From the IMG/VR virus record IMGVR_UViG_3300027563_000599: DNA of 64,000 bases; one strand, given 5' to 3'. The translations under genes and the position numbers were made by a program. The first letter of the stretch is position 1; each line of letters begins with the position of its first letter. The DNA comes from an uncultured virus (IMG/VR IMGVR_UViG_3300027563_000599). Taxonomy: Duplodnaviria; Heunggongvirae; Uroviricota; Caudoviricetes. Shown in pieces: positions 23,321 to 62,027 of the stretch. The notes below the pieces were generated by a model. The model saw nothing but the letters and a program-made list of their open reading frames with translations, was not told the DNA's origin and ran no database searches.

Positions 23321-23454
23321 GCTCGCTTCTCCACTAAGACTTCTTTGGTTTTGGGATCAAAAATACGAACATGCCCTTCAACAGAAATAGATCCTGTTTC
23401 ATTGGGTTTTTTGGCCGGTACTGTGGGCTGTGGTGATTTTGTATTTTGAGTCAT
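23317..23454 (-). CDS. 45-aa small protein (not in ORF track)
   Basis: MTQNTKSPQPTVPAKKPNETGSISVEGHVRIFDPKTKEVLVEKRA*; ATGA overlap with the next gene; GATAAATA ends 4 nt upstream. Confidence 0.7.
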   Translation of the reverse strand: MTQNTKSPQPTVPAKKPNETGSISVEGHVRIFDPKTKEVLVEKRA

Positions 23455-23458
23455 ACTT

Positions 23459-23466
23459 TATTTATC
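23459..23466 (-). promoter_or_regulatory. Late promoter GATAAATA
   Basis: Ends 4 nt upstream of the ATG at 23454. Confidence 0.6.
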
Positions 23467-23470
23467 TTGT

Positions 23471-55422: not shown

Positions 55423-57500
55423 TCCAAATTAAAAATTTAACTGTTAAGAACTTTATGAGTGTGGGCAATGCTACACAAGGTATTGACTTTAACCGTAACG
55501 ACCTTACATTGGTACTGGGCGAGAACTTAGACTTAGGTGGCGATGGCTCGCGCAACGGCACAGGCAAGACCACAATCATCAATGCATTGAGTTATGCCCT
55601 GTATGGACAAGCATTAAGCAACATTCGCAAGGATAATCTTGTGAACAAAACCAACAGCAAAGGCATGTTGGTCAGTTTGGACTTTGTTGTAAACGGTCAA
55701 GAATACAAGATTGAGCGTGGGCGTAAACCCAACGTATTGCGTTTTTATGTCAACAACGAAGCTCAAGTGGCCACAGACGAAGCACAAGGTGACAGTCGCG
55801 AAACACAGGATGCCATTGAACGTGTTATGAACATGAGTCACGACATGTTCAAACATGTGTTGGCCTTGAACACCTACACTGAACCATTCTTGAGTTTGAA
55901 GGCCAACGACCAGCGTAATATCATTGAACAGTTGTTGGGCATTACCTTGCTTTCGGAACGTGCAGATGCTATCAAAGAACTCAATCGTCAAACCAAAGAC
56001 AGTGTCAGTCAAGAAGAATTCCGTATCCGTGCAGAACAAGAAGCTAACCGACGCATTGAAGAACAGATCGAAAGTTTGAAACGCAGACAAGTGCTGTGGC
56101 AGAAGAAGTACGACAGTGATGTTGCGTACCTTGTGGCACAATATGATGATCTAGCAAAAATTGATATTGAGGTAGAACTGCTGGCTCACAAAGATCTAGC
56201 TGTGTGGACCGCAAGAAAACAACAGCAAGACGCATACATTGCTCTTGTGGGTCGACAGACTGCATGGAAGCAAAAACAAGACCGAGACATTAGAGAGTTA
56301 GAATCATCTTACAATGATCTCAGTCATATTGATATTCAGGCAGAATTACAGGCACACGTGGACTTGGCCGCACACACACAACAAGCCAAGGACATTGCTG
56401 AGCTTGAGAAGCTGATTGCTAGGTGTGTAGTTGACGAAGAAAAAGAACAAAAGACCATTGACAAACTTCGGACCGAAATTGAAGAGTTAAAAAATCACAA
56501 GTGCTATGCCTGTGGGCAAGACTTTCACGACGCCAATCACGAAACAGTGTTGGCCACTAAAGAAAAAGCCCTACAAGAAGCCGCACTGCAAGCACTGGCT
56601 ACCAACGGTCAGTGGATGGAAAATACAGATGCATTACGAGCACTAGGTGCCTTGGGTGCTAAACCTACCACACACTACCGAACAGAAACAGAAGCCATTC
56701 GTCATTCAAGTGAACTGGAAAACATTCAGCACAAGATTGATGCCAAACGTGCAGAAACAGACCCATATGCCGAACAGCTGGCAGAGCACACGCCTGTAGA
56801 AGCGGGCACACCGCCTGTTACACACTACGATACAGAAGCACAAGCTGTTGATCATCGCGGTCGTATGAACACCTTGCTGACACAGATTGCCACTAAGGGT
56901 GAAGAGAAAGATCCTTATACTGAACAAATTGCCGAAATGCAACACCAGGCATTGCAGACTGTGAGTTATGATGCACTCAACGAACTCACACGCTTGCAAG
57001 AGCATCAAGACTTCTTACTCAAACTGTTGACATCAAAAGATTCATTTGTTCGCAAGAAGATCATTGATCAGAATTTGAGTTACCTAAATTCAAGACTCAC
57101 ACACTATTTGGATCGTATTGGATTACCACACACTGTAAAGTTCCAGAATGATTTAACTGTAAGCATTGAAGAACTGGGTCGTGAGTTGGACTTTGACAAC
57201 TTGAGTCGTGGCGAACGTAACCGATTGATCTTGAGCATGAGCTGGGCATTCCGCGATGTATGGGAAAGTTTATACAGCCCAATCAACCTGTTGTTTATTG
57301 ACGAACTGATTGACAATGGACTAGACACGCAAGGCGTGGAGAATGCATTGGCCTTGCTGAAGAAAATGAGTCGTGAACGTCACAAGTCAATCTGGCTCGT
57401 GAGTCACAGAGATGAGCTTGCTGGACGTGTGGAGAACATTCTCAAAGTGATCAAAGAAAACGGCTTTACTAGTTACAACACGGATGTTGACCTTGCGTGA
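55419..57500 (+). CDS. gp46: Recombination endonuclease ATPase subunit, T4 gp46/Rad50/SbcC-like
   Basis: KNFMSVGN, Walker A NGTGKTT, zinc hook CYAC, signature LSRGE, Walker B LFIDE, VSH. Confidence 0.95.
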   Translation: MIQIKNLTVKNFMSVGNATQGIDFNRNDLTLVLGENLDLGGDGSRNGTGKTTIINALSYALYGQALSNIRKDNLVNKTNSKGMLVSLDFVVNGQEYKIERGRKPNVLRFYVNNEAQVATDEAQGDSRETQDAIERVMNMSHDMFKHVLALNTYTEPFLSLKANDQRNIIEQLLGITLLSERADAIKELNRQTKDSVSQEEFRIRAEQEANRRIEEQIESLKRRQVLWQKKYDSDVAYLVAQYDDLAKIDIEVELLAHKDLAVWTARKQQQDAYIALVGRQTAWKQKQDRDIRELESSYNDLSHIDIQAELQAHVDLAAHTQQAKDIAELEKLIARCVVDEEKEQKTIDKLRTEIEELKNHKCYACGQDFHDANHETVLATKEKALQEAALQALATNGQWMENTDALRALGALGAKPTTHYRTETEAIRHSSELENIQHKIDAKRAETDPYAEQLAEHTPVEAGTPPVTHYDTEAQAVDHRGRMNTLLTQIATKGEEKDPYTEQIAEMQHQALQTVSYDALNELTRLQEHQDFLLKLLTSKDSFVRKKIIDQNLSYLNSRLTHYLDRIGLPHTVKFQNDLTVSIEELGRELDFDNLSRGERNRLILSMSWAFRDVWESLYSPINLLFIDELIDNGLDTQGVENALALLKKMSRERHKSIWLVSHRDELAGRVENILKVIKENGFTSYNTDVDLA

Positions 57501-58356
57501 TATAAAAGTTCTACACCTAGAGCCCACTGATGTGTGCCAAGCGGCCTGCGCTTTGTGTGCTCGCGAAACAGATCAAAATTTTAGAAAAGATCTTCAACAT
57601 CATCTTTCAATGAGTCAAATCATCAAGGTATTTGGCCAAGAAAAAATCCAACAACTGGACAAAATGTTCATGTGTGGAGTGTATGGTGATCCTGCTGCTG
57701 GCAAGTACACATTGGACATCTATAGAGAATTCCGAAAACTTAACCCCAACATTGTGTTGGGCATGAACTCCAATGGCAGCATACAAAGCACAATTTGGTG
57801 GCATGAACTGGGCACAATGTTCAATCAATCCCAAGACTATGTGGTATTTTCAATTGATGGTCTCGAAAGTACCAATCATGTGTATCGTAAAAATGTCTCT
57901 TGGACCAAGCTCATGCAAAACGCACAAGCGTTTATTGCAGCCGGAGGTTCTGCACACTGGGACATGTTGGTTTATCGACACAATCAACACCAAGTGGATG
58001 AATGTGAGCAGTTGGCACGAGACATGGGGTTTACATGGTTTAGAGCCAAGGTCAGTCGACGAGGATTTACAGATAACCTAGAACAGCCCATTGGTTGGCA
58101 GCTGCCAAACGTGCAAGGCACAAAAATAAACTGTCATGCACTCAATGAACAAAGTACATATATCGATGCACAGGGTCGAGAAAGTCCGTGCTGTTGGTTG
58201 GGGTCAAGACAAAAAGATTTTGTAACAGACTTTGAAGAAGTCAAGAACTCCTGGACCAGCATTCAACCCAATATTGTTTGCATGGATGCTTGTGGTACTA
58301 CCGATATTGAGACTAGTTTTAGCAAGCAATGGCAACGAGCAGTAGAATTATGTTAG
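57484..58356 (+). CDS. Radical SAM protein with C-terminal SPASM/twitch-like domain
   Basis: CQAACALC, GVYGDP, SNGS, FSIDG; C...YIDAQGRESPCC...CMDAC. Confidence 0.9.
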   Translation: MLTLRDIKVLHLEPTDVCQAACALCARETDQNFRKDLQHHLSMSQIIKVFGQEKIQQLDKMFMCGVYGDPAAGKYTLDIYREFRKLNPNIVLGMNSNGSIQSTIWWHELGTMFNQSQDYVVFSIDGLESTNHVYRKNVSWTKLMQNAQAFIAAGGSAHWDMLVYRHNQHQVDECEQLARDMGFTWFRAKVSRRGFTDNLEQPIGWQLPNVQGTKINCHALNEQSTYIDAQGRESPCCWLGSRQKDFVTDFEEVKNSWTSIQPNIVCMDACGTTDIETSFSKQWQRAVELC

Positions 58357-59360
58357 CAACTTGGCATTTTCATATTGAGATTTCCAGCAAGTGTACCTTG
58401 CGGTGCCCCCGGTGTTCTCGGCAGGAAGTGCCCAACGGCCTTGTCAACACAGAACTAGATTTGGAATTTTTCAAACGTAACTTTACTCCAGAGTTTGTAC
58501 AAACACATATAGAGAAAATTACATTTTGTGGCGACGACGGCGATCCCATCTATGCACATGACTTGATCCCGGTTATAGAATACATCAAAAGCATCAAGCC
58601 GGTAGAGATTGTGATCGTGACCAATGGCTCACATAAGAAAGTTCAATGGTGGACACAGTTGGGCCAACTGTTAGACTCCAATGACAGTGTACATTTCAGC
58701 ATCGACGGGTATGATAACGACAGTAATAACATATATCGCATCAACAGTGATTACGACAGTATCATTTTAGGACTAAAAACATTGCGAGCCACAAGTGATT
58801 GCAAAATTATCTGGGCCGCGATTGCATTCAAGTTCAACGAAGAACACTTGGACACTATGAAAGCGTTTGCACACACTGTGGGAGTTGATCGATTTCAATT
58901 GACCAAGAGCACCAAGTTTGGCAGTGTGTATCCATCCTACGGGGTCAGCGATCCACTACAACCCAGTGTAAAATACATCAGCAGTACACATCGCTTTGAA
59001 CGTGAGTTCACTGCCTTGACACCACGGGACAAAGTGGAATCAATTTCCACTACCAACATTAAATTATTCAATCAAATTAAAAGCAGCAACGGCATTACTC
59101 CGTTGTGCATGATAGGCAACAAAGGCTTGTACATTGATGCCCGCGGTAGGTTATTTCCCTGCTGTTGGGTAGCAAATAGATACAGCCACAATTCAGACTG
59201 GCAGCAACTGGCAAACAATTTTGATCTACATAAAAAAACTTTAACAACTGTGCTGGCAGACACATTTTGGTCTACAGAATTTCAAACATTTAAATGGCAG
59301 GAATGCCAGACCAAGTGCAAGAGTTCAGTGGTAGATAAAAATTATGCAACTGCCTGGTGA
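58350..59360 (+). CDS. Radical SAM protein with C-terminal SPASM/twitch-like domain
   Basis: CTLRCPRC, GDDGDP, TNGS, FSIDG; C...YIDARGRLFPCC...CQTKC; start could also be 58329. Confidence 0.9.
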   Translation: MLATWHFHIEISSKCTLRCPRCSRQEVPNGLVNTELDLEFFKRNFTPEFVQTHIEKITFCGDDGDPIYAHDLIPVIEYIKSIKPVEIVIVTNGSHKKVQWWTQLGQLLDSNDSVHFSIDGYDNDSNNIYRINSDYDSIILGLKTLRATSDCKIIWAAIAFKFNEEHLDTMKAFAHTVGVDRFQLTKSTKFGSVYPSYGVSDPLQPSVKYISSTHRFEREFTALTPRDKVESISTTNIKLFNQIKSSNGITPLCMIGNKGLYIDARGRLFPCCWVANRYSHNSDWQQLANNFDLHKKTLTTVLADTFWSTEFQTFKWQECQTKCKSSVVDKNYATAW

Positions 59361-59377
59361 TCCGATAACTATGTTAC

Positions 59378-59806
59378 ATGACATGGTTCTACAACAATCA
59401 ACTGATAGAAACTCTACCCGACGATTGTGTGGGCTTTGTCTATTTGATTACAAATAATCTTTCTGGACGCAAGTACATAGGCAAAAAATTAGCAAAATTT
59501 AGTAAAACAACGCAACGCACTGTCAAACTTAAAAACGGCACAAAGAAGAAGAAAAAGATACGATCAAAGGTCGACTCAGACTGGAGAGAGTACTATGGGT
59601 CAAGCCCAGAATTGACTTCGGACATCGAAAAACTAGGCACCGAAAACTTCACCAGAGAAATACTTTACTATTGCAAATCCAAAAGCGAATGCAGTTACAT
59701 TGAGGCACGGGAACAATTTGCAAGACAAGTATTAGAATCACGAGATTATTACAACGGCCATATACAAGTGCGTGTACATGGCTCACACATTATAAACAAA
59801 CTGTAA
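59378..59806 (+). CDS. Short GIY-YIG-family nuclease-like protein
   Basis: GFVYLITN...RKYIGKK, YYGSS, F.REIL, E, YYNGHI; Lys-rich insertion; GATAACTA late-like box ends 6 nt upstream. Confidence 0.8.
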   Translation: MTWFYNNQLIETLPDDCVGFVYLITNNLSGRKYIGKKLAKFSKTTQRTVKLKNGTKKKKKIRSKVDSDWREYYGSSPELTSDIEKLGTENFTREILYYCKSKSECSYIEAREQFARQVLESRDYYNGHIQVRVHGSHIINKL

Positions 59807-59809
59807 GGC

Positions 59810-60094
59810 AGCATTAACGACACTGTGTTGGGTGACATGGCCCAACCCCATTGAGGATATGTGAGATACCATATTCAGATTCTTGGGCGTCAAAGGCAAT
59901 TGCTAACTTAAGGCAACAAATGGTTTGGGCTCCGTTGAAAAAGATACGACCCATGCTTATAGGACTTGGATCTACATCGGGTTACTAGGGTTCCGTTGAT
60001 ATGTGAAGCTTGAGTAGGGGGTACCGGTCAACCGCCTCCGCGCAGGAAACTGCAATCTCATTATGATAGATGACTGGGCTACTCAGATAATGCT
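59810..60094 (+). ncRNA. Candidate structured non-coding RNA (unassigned family)
   Basis: ORF-free; closed by AGCATTA(59810-16)/TAATGCT(60088-94); nested helices including TGAGTAG/CTACTCA and a GCAG-GAAA-CTGC GNRA hairpin; many G-U pairs on the plus strand. Confidence 0.6.
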
Positions 60095-60104
60095 AGGCTC
60101 ATCG

Positions 60105-60124
60105 TTCACCGTGCTTACGGTGAA
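60105..60124. other. Perfect 8-bp hairpin TTCACCGT-GCTT-ACGGTGAA (possible 3' processing or termination element)
   Basis: Inverted repeat between convergent transcription units. Confidence 0.55.
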
Positions 60125-60215
60125 TTATGACCAGTTAATCTAGATAATACTTAAAGAAGAAGACAAAGAAAAAATTGACGAGCAGAGCGAAGTCAATAGA
60201 ACTTCGCAGAAGTTC

Positions 60216-60758
60216 TTAAATGGTTACGCCAAGTTCTTGCAGTTTAGCAACAAAGAATGATTGGCCTTGAGAAACAGATTGTTGCCATGAGGTATGAGCA
60301 GAGTGATCTGCTTGATCAGTGATGTACTTGAAACAACGAAATTCAATACGATTACGCAGACAGACTTTGGCAATGGCATAGGCTTCCATGTCTACTAGAT
60401 CTGCAGGAATGTCTAGCTCTGGGTTCATCACAAAGTCATCGCCGGTGCTGCAGGTGAGTCCTGCTGTGCCAGTGGTTAAGATAATATCATCTTCAAATGG
60501 TGTTTGGCCATTGCTGCATCCTAGCCCCAGGCATCGGATATCACGTTGTACAAAATGACTGCATTCATGTAGTCCGGGCCCAACTGTTATGCCACCCGCT
60601 GTGCCAAGATTGATCACACGATCGGGTTGATATCGTTCAATCACCTGCGCCGCAGTCATGGCAGCATTTACTTTGCCAACTCCGGTATAAAACACATTCA
60701 TCATGTGCCGTAGACCCGGAGCTTCAGCCTGCAAGGCAATTAAAACTATGGTTTTCAT
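60216..60758 (-). CDS. mtnN: 5'-methylthioadenosine/S-adenosylhomocysteine nucleosidase (PNP_UDP_1 family)
   Basis: ALQAE, TGVGKVNAA, INLGTAGG, STGDDF, VDMEAYAIA, KYITDQAD. Confidence 0.85.
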   Translation of the reverse strand: MKTIVLIALQAEAPGLRHMMNVFYTGVGKVNAAMTAAQVIERYQPDRVINLGTAGGITVGPGLHECSHFVQRDIRCLGLGCSNGQTPFEDDIILTTGTAGLTCSTGDDFVMNPELDIPADLVDMEAYAIAKVCLRNRIEFRCFKYITDQADHSAHTSWQQSVSQGQSFFVAKLQELGVTI

Positions 60759-61090
60759 TCAAAAGTGTCGGGCCAGTCACGGAACAGGGCATGTTGAATA
60801 TCACCACTGACAAACTGATTGAAGCTCTTGTGTTTGACTTCCAGTTCGCCTTCCAACGGTGCTACACGTTTAAATGCTGAGTCCATTTGACCCATATCTT
60901 TAAATTCCATAAGTATCATCCATTCTGGCATATCTGCAATTGAACGAAACCCCATCTTGCATCTAGTGATGCGATAGTTTTCCATCTTGCCCTCAGATAC
61001 CAAATGATCAAAAAAACTCCGCATCCCTGTGACCCAGTCAATATCAGAAATGTCACCTTCTTTGTTTGCCCAAATTGTATAAATGTCCAT
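60755..61090 (-). CDS. Hypothetical protein (dimeric alpha/beta-barrel-like; recalled similarity to DUF6614)
   Basis: YRITRCKMGF...PEWMILMEFKDMGQMDSAF; coupled in the operon. Confidence 0.5.
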   Translation of the reverse strand: MDIYTIWANKEGDISDIDWVTGMRSFFDHLVSEGKMENYRITRCKMGFRSIADMPEWMILMEFKDMGQMDSAFKRVAPLEGELEVKHKSFNQFVSGDIQHALFRDWPDTFE

Positions 61091-61092
61091 AA

Positions 61093-61527
61093 TTACTCCA
61101 GTGGTCCTAGTATTTCAAAGCCATCCATGTCAGACTTGTATAGATGTGCCTGTTCAAGATACAAGTATCTAAATCCGCGATCTTTGTAAATTGCACACTC
61201 TGCTTGTAGTGTTTCGATACCCAATCTCATTTTGGGTCTATTATAATTCCATGCAAACTGATCACACAAGGCATTGTGATCGTCGTAGCGCCGTATCAGT
61301 GAAAATGCCACCAAACGATCCACATCGTAGTAGCCGATCACATCGGTCATTGGGTCTGTGTATCTGCTGTCAAATATCGGCATCACCGATGCAAAGTGCT
61401 TGTATTTGCAGTAGTCTCGATAGATCAGATTCAGCTCAGCAATGTTGGGTGTGCGCAGATACTCCCACTTGACATTGATTTTGTAATTGGTCTTAGCTAA
61501 ATCAATTCTAGCAAACTGGTAGCTCAT
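61093..61527 (-). CDS. GNAT-like protein resembling the C-terminal domain of arginyl/leucyl-tRNA-protein transferases (ATE_C/Bpt)
   Basis: GYYD..RLVAFS...W.Y..P...LG......E....K..G..YLYL.....YK....GFE. Confidence 0.55.
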   Translation of the reverse strand: MSYQFARIDLAKTNYKINVKWEYLRTPNIAELNLIYRDYCKYKHFASVMPIFDSRYTDPMTDVIGYYDVDRLVAFSLIRRYDDHNALCDQFAWNYNRPKMRLGIETLQAECAIYKDRGFRYLYLEQAHLYKSDMDGFEILGPLE

Positions 61528-62027
61528 GTTCTGGGATCCTGTCTGTGCTGAAACAGGCCGGTTAGATATTCTTCAGGCCAGTCATGATAAAATCCTCGGC
61601 TGGCCATGAGTCGAGCCTTGGTGTTTAGATCACTGAGACTCTGCACCAGAGCCAAGGCATAAGTGCCTTGATTCATGCATACTCCGTTGACCATTTCCAC
61701 ATCTGCAGGATGGTCTTCCAAGGCCAACATGTCTCTAGGCAGCAGAACTTCTTGGTTTGCCAGTTCAATGCTACCAGCCAGCTGTTCATGCGTCCATTCT
61801 TGAGGATCATACACATAGATGACAACTTCTTTATCGCCCATGCCCTGTCGGCCACGGTGTTTAAGATCATAATAAGGATCTGCACCAAGATACACTGCAT
61901 AACTGTTCTTTATTCGTGCTGACCGTGCGTAGGGACAAGGCGAAAAGCCCCCCAGGGCTGGATGCGGAACTTCTAGGAAGTTTGCAATCCACAGTTCTAT
62001 ATCTTTTTTAACTTGTTCGATATCCAT
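61524..62027 (-). CDS. Hypothetical protein (DUF1415-like)
   Basis: WI..FLE.P......PCPYAR.A, LEDHP, GFYHDW. Confidence 0.5.
   Translation of the reverse strand: MDIEQVKKDIELWIANFLEVPHPALGGFSPCPYARSARIKNSYAVYLGADPYYDLKHRGRQGMGDKEVVIYVYDPQEWTHEQLAGSIELANQEVLLPRDMLALEDHPADVEMVNGVCMNQGTYALALVQSLSDLNTKARLMASRGFYHDWPEEYLTGLFQHRQDPRT

What the first reader, a model, noticed from the sequence alone, without database searches (positions are those of the whole stretch)
59365..60124. Short GIY-YIG nuclease gene followed 3 nt later by a ~285-nt highly structured non-coding element: candidate nuclease-RNA system
Seen: this is the only large ORF-free gap in an otherwise tightly packed 64 kb, and it starts right after the GIY-YIG stop codon. 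By eye it folds into a closed multi-domain RNA. Outer helix: AGCATTA(59810-16)/TAATGCT(60088-94). Hairpin: GTTGGGT/GCCCAAC(59827-46). Junction: CCATT(59848-52)/AATGG(59919-23) enclosing GGATATG/CATATTC and TTGCT/GGCAA. Hairpin: TGGG/CCCA(59926-53). Domain: TGAGTAG(60011-17)/CTACTCA(60079-85) enclosing CGG-TCAA-CCG and a GCAG-GAAA-CTGC GNRA tetraloop. TCCGTTGA occurs twice (59931-38, 59992-99) and its TTGA could pair with the TCAA loop as a pseudoknot or kissing loop. Frequent G-U pairs favour a plus-strand RNA. The protein is only a catalytic GIY-YIG domain with a Lys-rich insertion (KTTQRTVKLKNGTKKKKKIRSK) and no C-terminal DNA-binding modules like those of I-TevI/Seg homing endonucleases. 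Inference: a co-transcribed RNA partner (RNP, possibly guide or scaffold), or an independent phage ncRNA/ribozyme. I cannot assign it to a known family.
Basis: partly seen in the sequence, partly recalled or inferred. Interest (0 to 1): 0.82.

Follow-up and report, generated by a model that had tools for sequence, protein, structure and literature searches.

The report
Phage structured RNA beside GIY-YIG gene
The gap after this phage nuclease gene encodes a real, roughly 400-base folded RNA that is a divergent form of an RNA motif described in 2010 whose function is still unknown, and nothing yet shows that it works together with the nuclease.

Summary
The 409-nt ORF-free gap (59807-60215) is real and is the largest in the window. 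It encodes a plus-strand structured RNA. On 57 distinct relatives, 93% of cells pair in my 93-pair model, against 81% in shuffles and 35-45% when partners are slid. 65 of 93 pairs show compensatory changes.

Three long-range helices do not. Single-sequence folding is no better than shuffles.

The window's RNA has no Rfam hit. A sister subtype at the same position matches RF01718, the Polynucleobacter-1 RNA, in 11 of 13 loci tested. The 2010 published alignment of that motif already contains the shared core GGUACCGGNCAACCGCC. So this is a new subtype of a known RNA of unknown function, now placed in uncultured T4-like phages and extended to about 400 nt.

Linkage to the 142-aa GIY-YIG gene is strong: 127 of 128 genes of this clade have such an RNA downstream. 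It is also separable. Unrelated genes are inserted between them, some RNAs have no GIY-YIG gene nearby, and five cultured phages carry GIY-YIG homologues without the RNA. A nuclease-RNA complex is possible but unsupported.

The parts
59378..59806 (+). 142-aa stand-alone GIY-YIG nuclease gene (catalytic domain only)
   Evidence: Pfam PF19835 SegE_GIY-YIG, E 9e-34, covering profile positions 1-123 of 123. phrog_447, E 1.5e-38. Motif residues are invariant in 14 homologues.
59808..59818 (+). 5' leader with the AGGCA motif directly after the stop codon
   Evidence: An (U)AGGCA(R)C motif follows the stop of whichever plus-strand ORF lies upstream in most contexts, but not all.
59819..59891 (+). 5' domain closed by P1 (GAC 59819-21 / GUC 59889-91). 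It holds P2 (hairpin 59827-46), P3 (59847-50 / 59884-87) and P3a (hairpin 59855-76).
   Evidence: P1 shows G-C 45, C-G 9 and A-U 51, G-C 5. P2, P3 and P3a have compensatory changes in 6 of 7, 3 of 4 and 6 of 7 pairs.
59900..59916 (+). P4 hairpin with a nearly invariant loop AACUUAA
   Evidence: 3 of 5 pairs have compensatory changes and 94% of cells pair. Loop conservation is seen.
59926..59953 (+). P5 hairpin (UGGG/CCCA plus an inner CG/CG)
   Evidence: The closing pair appears as G-C 24, U-A 21, C-G 6, A-U 4.
59960..59987 (+). P6 hairpin. Its loop (59970-76) forms pseudoknot PK2 with 60064-71.
   Evidence: P6 has 6 of 10 compensatory pairs. PK2 has 5 of 7 compensatory pairs and 91.9% of cells paired. 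One example is AUUUAUUAU/AUAAUAAAU in L048.
59995..60032 (+). Pseudoknot PK1: GUUGA 59995-99 pairs with UCAAC 60028-32
   Evidence: 124 of 127 distinct 3' domains are fully complementary, in 8 sequence versions. Caveat: this was a best-5-mer search within a 50-nt stretch.
60011..60060 (+). Conserved three-way core: P7 (60011-14 / 60057-60), P8 (60017-21 / 60035-39, holding the core GGUACCGGUCAACCGCC) and P9 (GNRA hairpin 60042-53)
   Evidence: P7 and P9 have compensatory changes in 4 of 4 pairs each. P8 is 100% paired. The same core is present in the published Polynucleobacter-1 alignment.
60070..60092 (+). Box 1: AUGAC-N6-ACUCAGAUAAUG
   Evidence: It co-varies as identical, not complementary, with box 2 (mutual information 1.03 for 60089/60146). 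No internal pairing partner was found.
60104..60125 (+). P10 hairpin between the two boxes
   Evidence: 93.7% of cells pair and 5 of 9 pairs are compensatory. Other subtypes have different stems at the same place.
60127..60150 (+). Box 2: AUGAC-N6-AAUCUAGAUAAUA
   Evidence: The same box-hairpin-box layout occurs in the type 1b and type 2 RNAs.
60153..60215 (+). Purine-rich tract, then hairpins P11 (60174-97) and P12 (60199-60215). These are likely back-to-back terminators of the two convergent transcription units.
   Evidence: P11 and P12 each have 6 of 6 compensatory pairs. The terminator role is inferred from the neighbouring A and U runs. The consensus scan found none.
60216..60758 (-). Convergent neighbour: nucleosidase/phosphorylase-like gene (context only)
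   Evidence: Pfam PNP_UDP_1, E 4e-18. NCBIfam nucleosidase families. It is absent at this place in most related loci, where DUF6614 abuts the RNA.

Best explanation
The gap encodes a plus-strand non-coding RNA of about 400 nt with two pseudoknots. It is a divergent subtype ('type 1a') of the Polynucleobacter-1 RNA family (Rfam RF01718, function unknown) and is carried by uncultured T4-like phages.

The RNA begins within a few bases of the stop codon of whichever plus-strand gene lies upstream, which is usually the 142-aa GIY-YIG gene. It is therefore most likely made as the 3' end of that transcript and ends at the P12 hairpin.

It most likely acts on its own as a folded RNA. Its nearly invariant pseudoknotted core and its two identical single-stranded boxes probably bind a protein or ligand, or form a catalytic centre. 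It probably does not guide or scaffold the GIY-YIG nuclease.

Shown: the RNA is real, its strand, its fold, its family link and its gene linkage. Inferred: co-transcription, the RNA ends, and independence from the nuclease. Unknown: what it does biochemically.
For: Structure: 93 pairs, 93.0% of cells paired against 81.0% in shuffles (0 of 500) and 35-45% when slid; 65 pairs with compensatory changes. RNAalifold independently found 43 of 80 pairs compensatory.

Strand.

Family link:
- RF01718 scores 75-122 bits, starting 7 nt or more after the GIY-YIG stop, in 11 of 13 non-1a loci tested. It scores nothing in 0 of 9 type 1a (window not counted) and 0 of 4 type 2 loci.
- The core GGUACCGGNCAACCGCC and a 'pseudoknot?' label appear in the 2010 supplement.
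- The 3' domain is shared by nhmmer.

Phage context: gp46-like, GIY-YIG, RNA, then a convergent baseplate block. Only 3 of 95 pattern matches in prokaryote genomes are real, and all three are in MAG contigs.

Transcript position: the RNA abuts the upstream stop in every context, and four or more unrelated genes have been inserted between GIY-YIG and the RNA on the same strand.

Independence from the nuclease:
- 6 of 74 informative RNA loci have no GIY-YIG within 2.5 kb.
- None is found in 5 such contigs of 16-93 kb.
- GIY-YIG homologues occur in 505 phage records, but no phage record matches any of the three RNA types.
- 5 of 5 inspected homologues are followed by 150 nt or less.
- The RNA subtype switches about 18 times on the GIY-YIG tree.
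Against: - No expression data.
- Linkage is very tight: 127 of 128 GIY-YIG genes of this clade have an RNA downstream, and this holds down to 44% protein identity. That would also fit a functional pair.
- The GIY-less contigs are fragments (5-26% complete), so a GIY-YIG gene elsewhere in those genomes is not excluded.
- The two identical boxes are unexplained.
- The window RNA itself fails the RF01718 model, so family membership rests on the shared 3' core and shared position.
- The GIY-YIG tree is built on only 142 residues.
Confidence: 0.6

Rival explanations
1. Nuclease-RNA partnership. The RNA is a cofactor, scaffold, regulator or guide of the short GIY-YIG nuclease, which has no DNA-binding domain of its own.
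For: - Same strand, with the RNA starting 2-13 nt after the stop codon.
- 127 of 128 GIY-YIG genes of the clade are followed by one of the RNA subtypes.
- 68 of 74 informative RNA loci have GIY-YIG upstream on the same strand.
- The linkage persists at 44-65% protein identity.
- The protein is a catalytic domain only.
Against: - RNAs occur without GIY-YIG.
- Unrelated genes are inserted between gene and RNA in 12 loci.
- The GIY-YIG family is widespread without the RNA.
- The Lys/Arg loop is family-wide and does not track the RNA.
- Very different 5' domains (types 1a, 1b, 2) sit beside GIY-YIG proteins that are 87% identical.
- The variable parts are base-paired stems, not a free guide.
- T4 endonuclease II shows that a short GIY-YIG enzyme can bind DNA unaided (PMC2764454, abstract seen in the listing).
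Confidence: 0.15
2. Cis-acting 3' UTR element. The fold stabilises, terminates or regulates the upstream message, and has no role in trans.
For: - It always abuts the stop codon of the upstream plus-strand ORF, whatever that ORF is.
- In most loci it sits at the convergent boundary, followed by the hairpins P11 and P12.
- Weinberg et al. scored the motif 'cis-reg? y' (Table 1 of PMC2864571).
Against: - About 330 nt with two pseudoknots, a GNRA hairpin and nearly invariant junctions is far more than protection or termination needs.
- In some loci plus-strand genes follow it (L050, L105, L116, L149, L085).
- In L140 the upstream gene is divergent.
Confidence: 0.15
3. Homing-endonuclease arrangement. 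The GIY-YIG gene is a Seg-like mobile gene parked beside a conserved RNA gene that holds or flanks its cleavage site, as T4 segB sits among tRNA genes.
For: - Best Pfam and NCBIfam matches are to SegE and group I intron endonucleases.
- There is a precedent in PMC2330249 (abstract seen in the listing).
- Some RNA loci lack the gene.
Against: - No DNA-binding domain and no remnant of one.
- The gene is present in nearly all related loci. Its divergence tracks its neighbours: for example GIY 98/86/72% against DUF6614 97/88/76% in L002, L023 and L089. That is vertical inheritance, not sporadic spread.
- Homologues in cultured phages sit at other fixed places, after the nrd genes.
Confidence: 0.07

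Closest known systems
Polynucleobacter-1 RNA motif (Rfam RF01718; Weinberg et al. 2010, PMC2864571. I saw Table 1, the supplementary alignment and the consensus drawing)
   Same: - Same strand and same position, directly 3' of the GIY-YIG homologue.
- Same core GAGG-UACCGGNCAACCG-CCUC.
- The same kind of pseudoknot, between a hairpin loop and the strand 3' of the core.
- Fresh-water metagenomic origin.
- Function unknown.
   Different: - The window's 5' domain (59819-59990) is unrelated in sequence, and the RF01718 model (141 positions, 5' part only) does not match it even at E up to 10.
- The published alignment stops at the pseudoknot strand. Box 1, P10, box 2 and the terminal hairpins were not described there.
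- The paper lists the taxa as Burkholderiales and fresh water/estuary, and scores the motif as possibly cis-regulatory. It does not give a phage or GIY-YIG context in what I read.
T4 SegB, a GIY-YIG homing endonuclease in the tRNA gene cluster (PMC2330249, abstract only)
   Same: A GIY-YIG gene of a T4-type phage lying next to stable RNA genes.
   Different: By that abstract, SegB is a site-specific homing endonuclease, and the two-domain build of GIY-YIG homing endonucleases is stated in PMC3664794 (abstract). The protein here is 142 aa, catalytic domain only, and looks vertically inherited.
T4 endonuclease II (DenA), a stand-alone GIY-YIG nuclease (PMC2764454, abstract only)
   Same: A short phage GIY-YIG enzyme without a separate DNA-binding module. 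Homologues of the window protein in Melnitz, BUCT-ZZ01 and C48C1 lie after the nrd genes, which is where I recall T4 denA lying.
   Different: No sequence match to any solved structure at useful E-values. No fold was obtained, so orthology is untested.
HEARO / IscB omega-RNA and TnpB reRNA (recalled, not read here)
   Same: A nuclease gene with an adjacent, large, conserved structured RNA.
   Different: Those RNAs carry a variable guide and are obligatory partners encoded within a transposon. Here there is no guide-like segment, no transposon ends and no Rfam match, and gene and RNA occur apart.
Large ornate RNAs GOLLD, ROOL and OLE (10.1101/2024.12.08.627333, abstract only)
   Same: Large, intricately folded RNAs of unknown function. 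I recall that they are often phage-associated.
   Different: No sequence or model similarity. This RNA is smaller. Self-assembly was not tested.

Membership tests
Polynucleobacter-1 RNA (RF01718) | Match to the Rfam covariance model at or above 37 bits | tested here: not met
   The window has no hit at gathering score or at E up to 10 over 59300-60300. 0 of 9 other type 1a loci hit. 11 of 13 non-1a loci score 75-122 bits.
Polynucleobacter-1 RNA (RF01718) | Conserved core hairpin GAGG-UACCGGNCAACCG-CCUC, as in the published seed alignment | tested here: met
   Window 60017-60039. The core is nearly invariant in A1 and A2 and is present in the 2010 alignment rows.
Polynucleobacter-1 RNA (RF01718) | Pseudoknot between a hairpin loop upstream of the core and the strand just 3' of the core ('pseudoknot?' in the published drawing) | tested here: met
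   PK2, 59970-76 with 60064-71, has 5 of 7 compensatory pairs. The type 1b equivalent is UAGCGU/ACGCUA with variants. The drawing text was seen.
Polynucleobacter-1 RNA (RF01718) | Same genomic place and strand as bona fide members | tested here: met
   RF01718 hits start 7-50 nt after the GIY-YIG stop on the same strand. The window RNA starts directly after the stop.
GIY-YIG nuclease superfamily (Pfam PF19835 SegE_GIY-YIG) | Profile match and conserved motif residues | tested here: met
   E 9e-34, full profile. Y22, Y33, R93, E109 and N126 are invariant in 14 sequences. Their catalytic roles are recalled, not tested.
Seg / I-TevI type homing endonucleases | C-terminal DNA-binding domain joined to the GIY-YIG domain | tested here: not met
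   The protein is 142 aa. Homologues end at the same residue. Downstream there are stops in all frames and no conserved ORF.
Seg / I-TevI type homing endonucleases | Sporadic, mobile distribution among related genomes | tested here: not met
   The gene is upstream of 68 of 74 informative RNA loci, and its divergence tracks that of its neighbours.
RNA-guided nuclease systems (IscB/TnpB type) | Variable guide segment next to a conserved scaffold, and obligatory co-occurrence | tested here: not met
   Variable segments are paired stems. No complementary target was found in the window. RNA occurs without the gene and the gene without the RNA.
Group I intron with intron-encoded GIY-YIG | Intron_gpI model match and flanking exons of one gene | tested here: not met
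   No Rfam intron hit in the window or in 19 related loci at E up to 1-10. The flanking genes are convergent.
tRNA / tmRNA | ARAGORN detection | tested here: not met
   0 genes in the window and in 13 related loci.
T4 endonuclease II (DenA) orthologue | Sequence or fold similarity to T4 EndoII | tested here: inconclusive
   No PDB sequence match with one sequence or with a profile.

The most novel reading that the evidence does not exclude
The Polynucleobacter-1-type RNAs are dedicated partners of a short, domain-less GIY-YIG nuclease in T4-like phages. The shared 3' core and the twin boxes would bind the enzyme, possibly as a dimer or tetramer. They would either hold it inactive or direct it, for example sparing phage DNA while host DNA is degraded. 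The exchangeable 5' domains (types 1a, 1b, 2) would tune specificity. This would be an RNA-controlled GIY-YIG nuclease, for which I know no precedent.
Probability: 0.12. Interest if true: 0.85.

Novelty: new variant of a known kind. Interest (0 to 1): 0.48.

Why it matters
Polynucleobacter-1 has been an RNA motif of unknown function since 2010. In the searched library only the discovery paper names it.

This analysis adds four things:
- It places the family in uncultured T4-like phages.
- It shows the RNA is about 400 nt, with two covariation-supported pseudoknots and an undescribed 3' tail.
- It shows at least three subtypes with exchangeable 5' domains on a shared core.
- It ties the RNA to one gene neighbourhood, the 3' end of a GIY-YIG nuclease transcript.

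Large RNAs with nearly invariant pseudoknotted cores have often turned out to be ribozymes or specific binders. A defined phage context and a candidate protein neighbour make the motif experimentally approachable. The current Rfam model covers only the first 141 positions and misses the 1a and 2 subtypes, so the family is under-annotated.

Tried and rejected
1. Decayed C-terminal domain of a longer Seg-type gene. Rejected: stops in all frames, no conserved ORF, base-pair-preserving substitutions, and homologues ending at the same residue.
2. tRNA or tmRNA. None found.
3. Group I intron, HEARO or other Rfam families for the window. None.
4. An internal pairing partner for the two boxes. The best candidates pair in only 70-80% of cells, with no consistent site. 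Leader-box pairings fit some lineages only (by eye).
5. The box motif as a genome-wide site. 3 matches against 1.6 expected.
6. Consensus sigma-70 promoters and intrinsic terminators. 1 and 0 found, not above shuffles.
7. A host chromosomal homologue. 95 pattern matches in prokaryote genomes is about the chance number. Only 3 are real, and all are in MAG contigs.
8. Cultured phages carrying the RNA. None for types 1a, 1b or 2 by blastn.
9. The catalogue of 10,000 viral structured RNAs (PMC10690425). The main text and 6 supplementary files had nothing relevant. Its two large files and one further file could not be searched, so the motif may be listed there.
10. The Minerva preprint. No nuclease-linked RNA of this kind.
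11. Expression evidence.
12. Fold of the GIY-YIG protein.
Full report
THE OBSERVATION

Window 59378-59806 (+) encodes a 142-aa protein that matches the whole Pfam SegE_GIY-YIG profile (E 9e-34) and phrog_447. The stretch 59807-60215 lies between this gene and a convergent nucleosidase-like gene (60216-60758, minus strand). It is the largest ORF-free gap of the window at 409 nt. The only other gap of 150 nt or more is 23321-23470. All three plus frames are full of stops.

Folding the single sequence gives no signal. The MFE is -93 kcal/mol against -91.8 for shuffles, z = -0.25, and the minus strand is no better. The claim 'highly structured' therefore cannot rest on this one sequence.

IS IT A REAL RNA?

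The GIY-YIG protein has at least 587 relatives in IMG/VR. By blastn, 33 of the 81 loci then held (80 fetched loci plus L001, the near-identical record) carry the gap sequence at 76-100% identity, mostly directly after the stop codon. No reading frame is conserved.

An alignment of 28 sequences shows obvious compensatory changes. RNAalifold predicts 80 pairs, 43 of them with double changes.

I then built a 93-pair model in 19 helices, including two pseudoknots, from mutual information. I counted it on 57 distinct sequences (alignment A2). The results are:
- 93.0% of 5224 cells pair, against 81.0% in 500 shuffles (none reach the observed value) and 35-45% when partners are slid by 1-3 columns.
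- 65 pairs carry compensatory changes.
- The covariation score is 0.344, against 0.137 for shuffles and at most 0.079 for slid partners.

Read as the minus strand, only 85.6% of cells pair, and there are 444 G-U cells. The RNA is therefore on the plus strand, the same as the GIY-YIG gene.

Supported:
- Hairpin 59827-46.
- GGATATG/CATATTC.
- TTGCT/GGCAA.
- TGGG/CCCA.
- The GNRA hairpin 60042-53.
- The proposed TTGA/TCAA tertiary pairing. As GUUGN/N'CAAC it is fully complementary in 124 of 127 distinct 3' domains, in eight sequence versions. That count took the best 5-mer within a 50-nt stretch, so some matches could be chance, but most lie 20-26 nt upstream.

Not supported: the outer helix AGCATTA/TAATGCT (58% paired), CCATT/AATGG (no double change) and TGAGTAG/CTACTCA. 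Together these pair in 73.5% of cells against 72.8% in shuffles.

Replaced or added:
- UGAG 60011-14 pairs with CUCA 60057-60.
- GAC 59819-21 pairs with GUC 59889-91.
- The loop of hairpin 59960-87 pairs with 60064-71 (PK2).

It runs through box 1 (60070-92), hairpin P10 (60104-25) and box 2 (60127-50), then a purine-rich tract and two covarying hairpins (60174-97, 60199-60215). I read these last two as the terminators of the two convergent units. That reading is an inference, because the consensus scan found no terminator.

The two boxes change together and stay identical to each other (mutual information 1.03). I found no partner for them inside the RNA. This remains unexplained.

WHAT IT IS

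The window itself has no Rfam match, either at gathering score or at E up to 10. Many related loci share only the 3' half with the window (nhmmer; sequences).

In those 'type 1b' loci the 5' half is Rfam RF01718, the Polynucleobacter-1 RNA:
- 11 of 13 non-1a loci tested score 75-122 bits over the whole 141-position model, starting 7 nt or more after the GIY-YIG stop.
- 0 of 9 type 1a loci (the window not counted) and 0 of 4 type 2 loci match.

The motif comes from Weinberg et al. 2010 (PMC2864571). Its Table 1 lists it as a likely RNA, possibly cis-regulatory, from Burkholderiales and fresh water/estuary. Its supplementary alignment holds sequences of about 280 nt. These run through the very core shared with the window (…CGAGGUACCGGACAACCGCCUCUG…) and stop at the pseudoknot strand. 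The drawing is labelled 'pseudoknot?'.

So the window RNA is a subtype with a different 5' domain on the same core. The Rfam model covers only the 5' part, which is why it misses this subtype.

A third form ('type 2') occupies the same place in 8 loci. It has its own covariation (21 of 95 pairs in 6 sequences) and the same box-hairpin-box tail. In the paper library only the 2010 paper names the motif.

CONTEXT

The locus is the boundary between a rightward gp46-like (Rad50/SMC) block and a leftward baseplate block. This holds in the window and in distant relatives.

None of the 50,697 phage records matches any RNA type by blastn. The core pattern in 596 Gb of prokaryote genomes gives about the chance number of matches. 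Only three are real, and all lie in MAG contigs: two of one Haliscomenobacter MAG and one of a Flavobacteriales MAG. These are probably binned phage DNA. The RNA therefore looks phage-borne, and its host is unknown.

LINKAGE TO THE NUCLEASE

Starting from the gene: of 128 viral loci with a full GIY-YIG gene and at least 450 nt downstream, 60 have type 1a, 59 type 1b, 8 type 2 and 1 none.

Starting from the RNA, for 80 loci picked by the core pattern alone:
- 48 have the gene adjacent.
- 8 more hold partial or diverged GIY-YIG matches. Seven are adjacent; L122's lies about 1.1 kb upstream.
- In L148 the gene is adjacent, although the locus ends too soon for nhmmer to see the RNA.
- 11 have the gene 1.0-1.3 kb upstream with another plus-strand gene in between, making 12 with L122.
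- 6 have no GIY-YIG within 2.5 kb.
- 6 are uninformative.

An independent metagenome sample agrees: of 103 real elements, 52 are adjacent, 3 further away, 16 have none within 700 nt, and 32 are too short to judge.

The inserted genes belong to at least four unrelated families without Pfam matches. Five GIY-less contigs of 16-93 kb hold no homologue, but they are fragments.

The GIY-YIG family itself is widespread. It occurs in 505 phage records, mostly cyanophages, at under 60% identity. In 5 of 5 records inspected the gene is followed by 150 nt or less of non-coding DNA.

On a tree of 98 GIY-YIG proteins the RNA subtype changes about 18 times, against 38 on average for shuffled labels (minimum 31). 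Subtypes are therefore exchanged between close GIY-YIG relatives. For example, L003 carries type 2 beside a protein 87% identical to the window's.

HOW IT MOST LIKELY WORKS

The RNA always begins within a few bases of the stop codon of the upstream plus-strand ORF, whichever ORF that is. An own sigma-70-like promoter is seen only in a GIY-less locus, L149 (by eye). I therefore infer that the RNA is normally made as the tail of the upstream transcript. This alone would explain the persistent same-strand order GIY-YIG, (insert), RNA without any physical partnership.

The size, the two pseudoknots, the GNRA loop and the nearly invariant junctions point to a folded RNA with a specific biochemical role: binding a protein or small molecule, or catalysis. 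I cannot say which. A partnership with the nuclease stays possible at roughly 15%, a purely cis-acting 3' UTR role at about 15%, and a homing-endonuclease-and-target arrangement at about 7%.

LIMITS

- No expression data could be obtained.
- No protein fold could be obtained.
- Parts of the supplement of the viral structured-RNA catalogue could not be searched.
- The roles I give to the GIY-YIG motif residues, the map position of T4 denA, and the properties of HEARO/omega RNAs are recalled, not tested here.

EARLIER NOTES OF THIS SCAN

Earlier notes on other genomes concern the neighbouring DUF6614 / aminoacyl-transferase-like cassette and the gp26/51-like frameshift, not this RNA. They helped only in naming the neighbours.

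VERDICT

This is a real RNA, a new subtype of a known RNA family of unknown function, with a new phage and gene context. The nuclease-RNA system reading is not supported by present evidence.

Noticed in passing
L003:3430-3896, L028:3693-4160, L037, L049, L050, L029, L035: A third conserved RNA of about 400 nt ('type 2') replaces the window's RNA at the same position after the GIY-YIG gene. It shares only the motifs UUGAUAU-GU-GAA and AUUGAGG and the box-hairpin-box tail. RNAalifold finds 21 of 95 pairs compensatory in 6 sequences. No Rfam hit.
   Followed up: partly
window 60070-60092 and 60127-60150: Two direct repeats of about 23 nt (AUGAC-N6-AYUC-YRGAURAW) flank hairpin P10 and change in step across phages, staying identical to each other. 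The second contains the palindrome AUCUAGAU. No pairing partner was found.
   Followed up: partly
L004, L015, L062, L077, L091, L134, L144 and others, between the GIY-YIG stop and the RNA: This is a hot spot for gene insertion. At least four unrelated ORF families of 257-341 aa, none with Pfam matches, have been inserted on the plus strand exactly between the GIY-YIG stop codon and the RNA 5' end.
   Followed up: partly
Rfam RF01718 versus loci L012, L040, L014 and others: The Rfam model of Polynucleobacter-1 has 141 positions and covers only the 5' third of an RNA of about 400 nt. The published 2010 alignment is about 280 nt long. The 3' tail is in neither.
   Followed up: yes
window 57484-59360 and 60216-60758: Two tandem radical-SAM genes (290 and 343 aa) lie upstream of the GIY-YIG gene, and a 5'-methylthioadenosine/SAH-nucleosidase-like gene is convergent with the RNA. 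This could be a SAM-radical chemistry module with by-product salvage.
   Followed up: no
window 60755-62027 (minus strand): A DUF6614 gene (111 aa) is followed by 144-aa and 167-aa ORFs with no Pfam or NCBIfam match. Earlier notes of this scan on other genomes describe the equivalent trio as an aminoacyl-tRNA-transferase-like / haem-protein cassette. In most related loci DUF6614 directly abuts the RNA.
   Followed up: no
L242 and L255 (two contigs of one Haliscomenobacter MAG) and L225 (Flavobacteriales MAG): Complete copies of the GIY-YIG / RNA / DUF6614 locus sit in contigs of 148 kb and 183 kb that were binned into a bacterial MAG. This is probably phage DNA mis-binned, or possibly a hint to the host.
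   Followed up: no
L096:2673-3347: In one GIY-less locus a diverged copy of the RNA follows a PDDEXK-type endonuclease gene (Pfam PF24608, E 1e-26) instead of the GIY-YIG gene.
   Followed up: no
window 23321-23470: The only other ORF-free stretch of 150 nt or more in the window.
   Followed up: no
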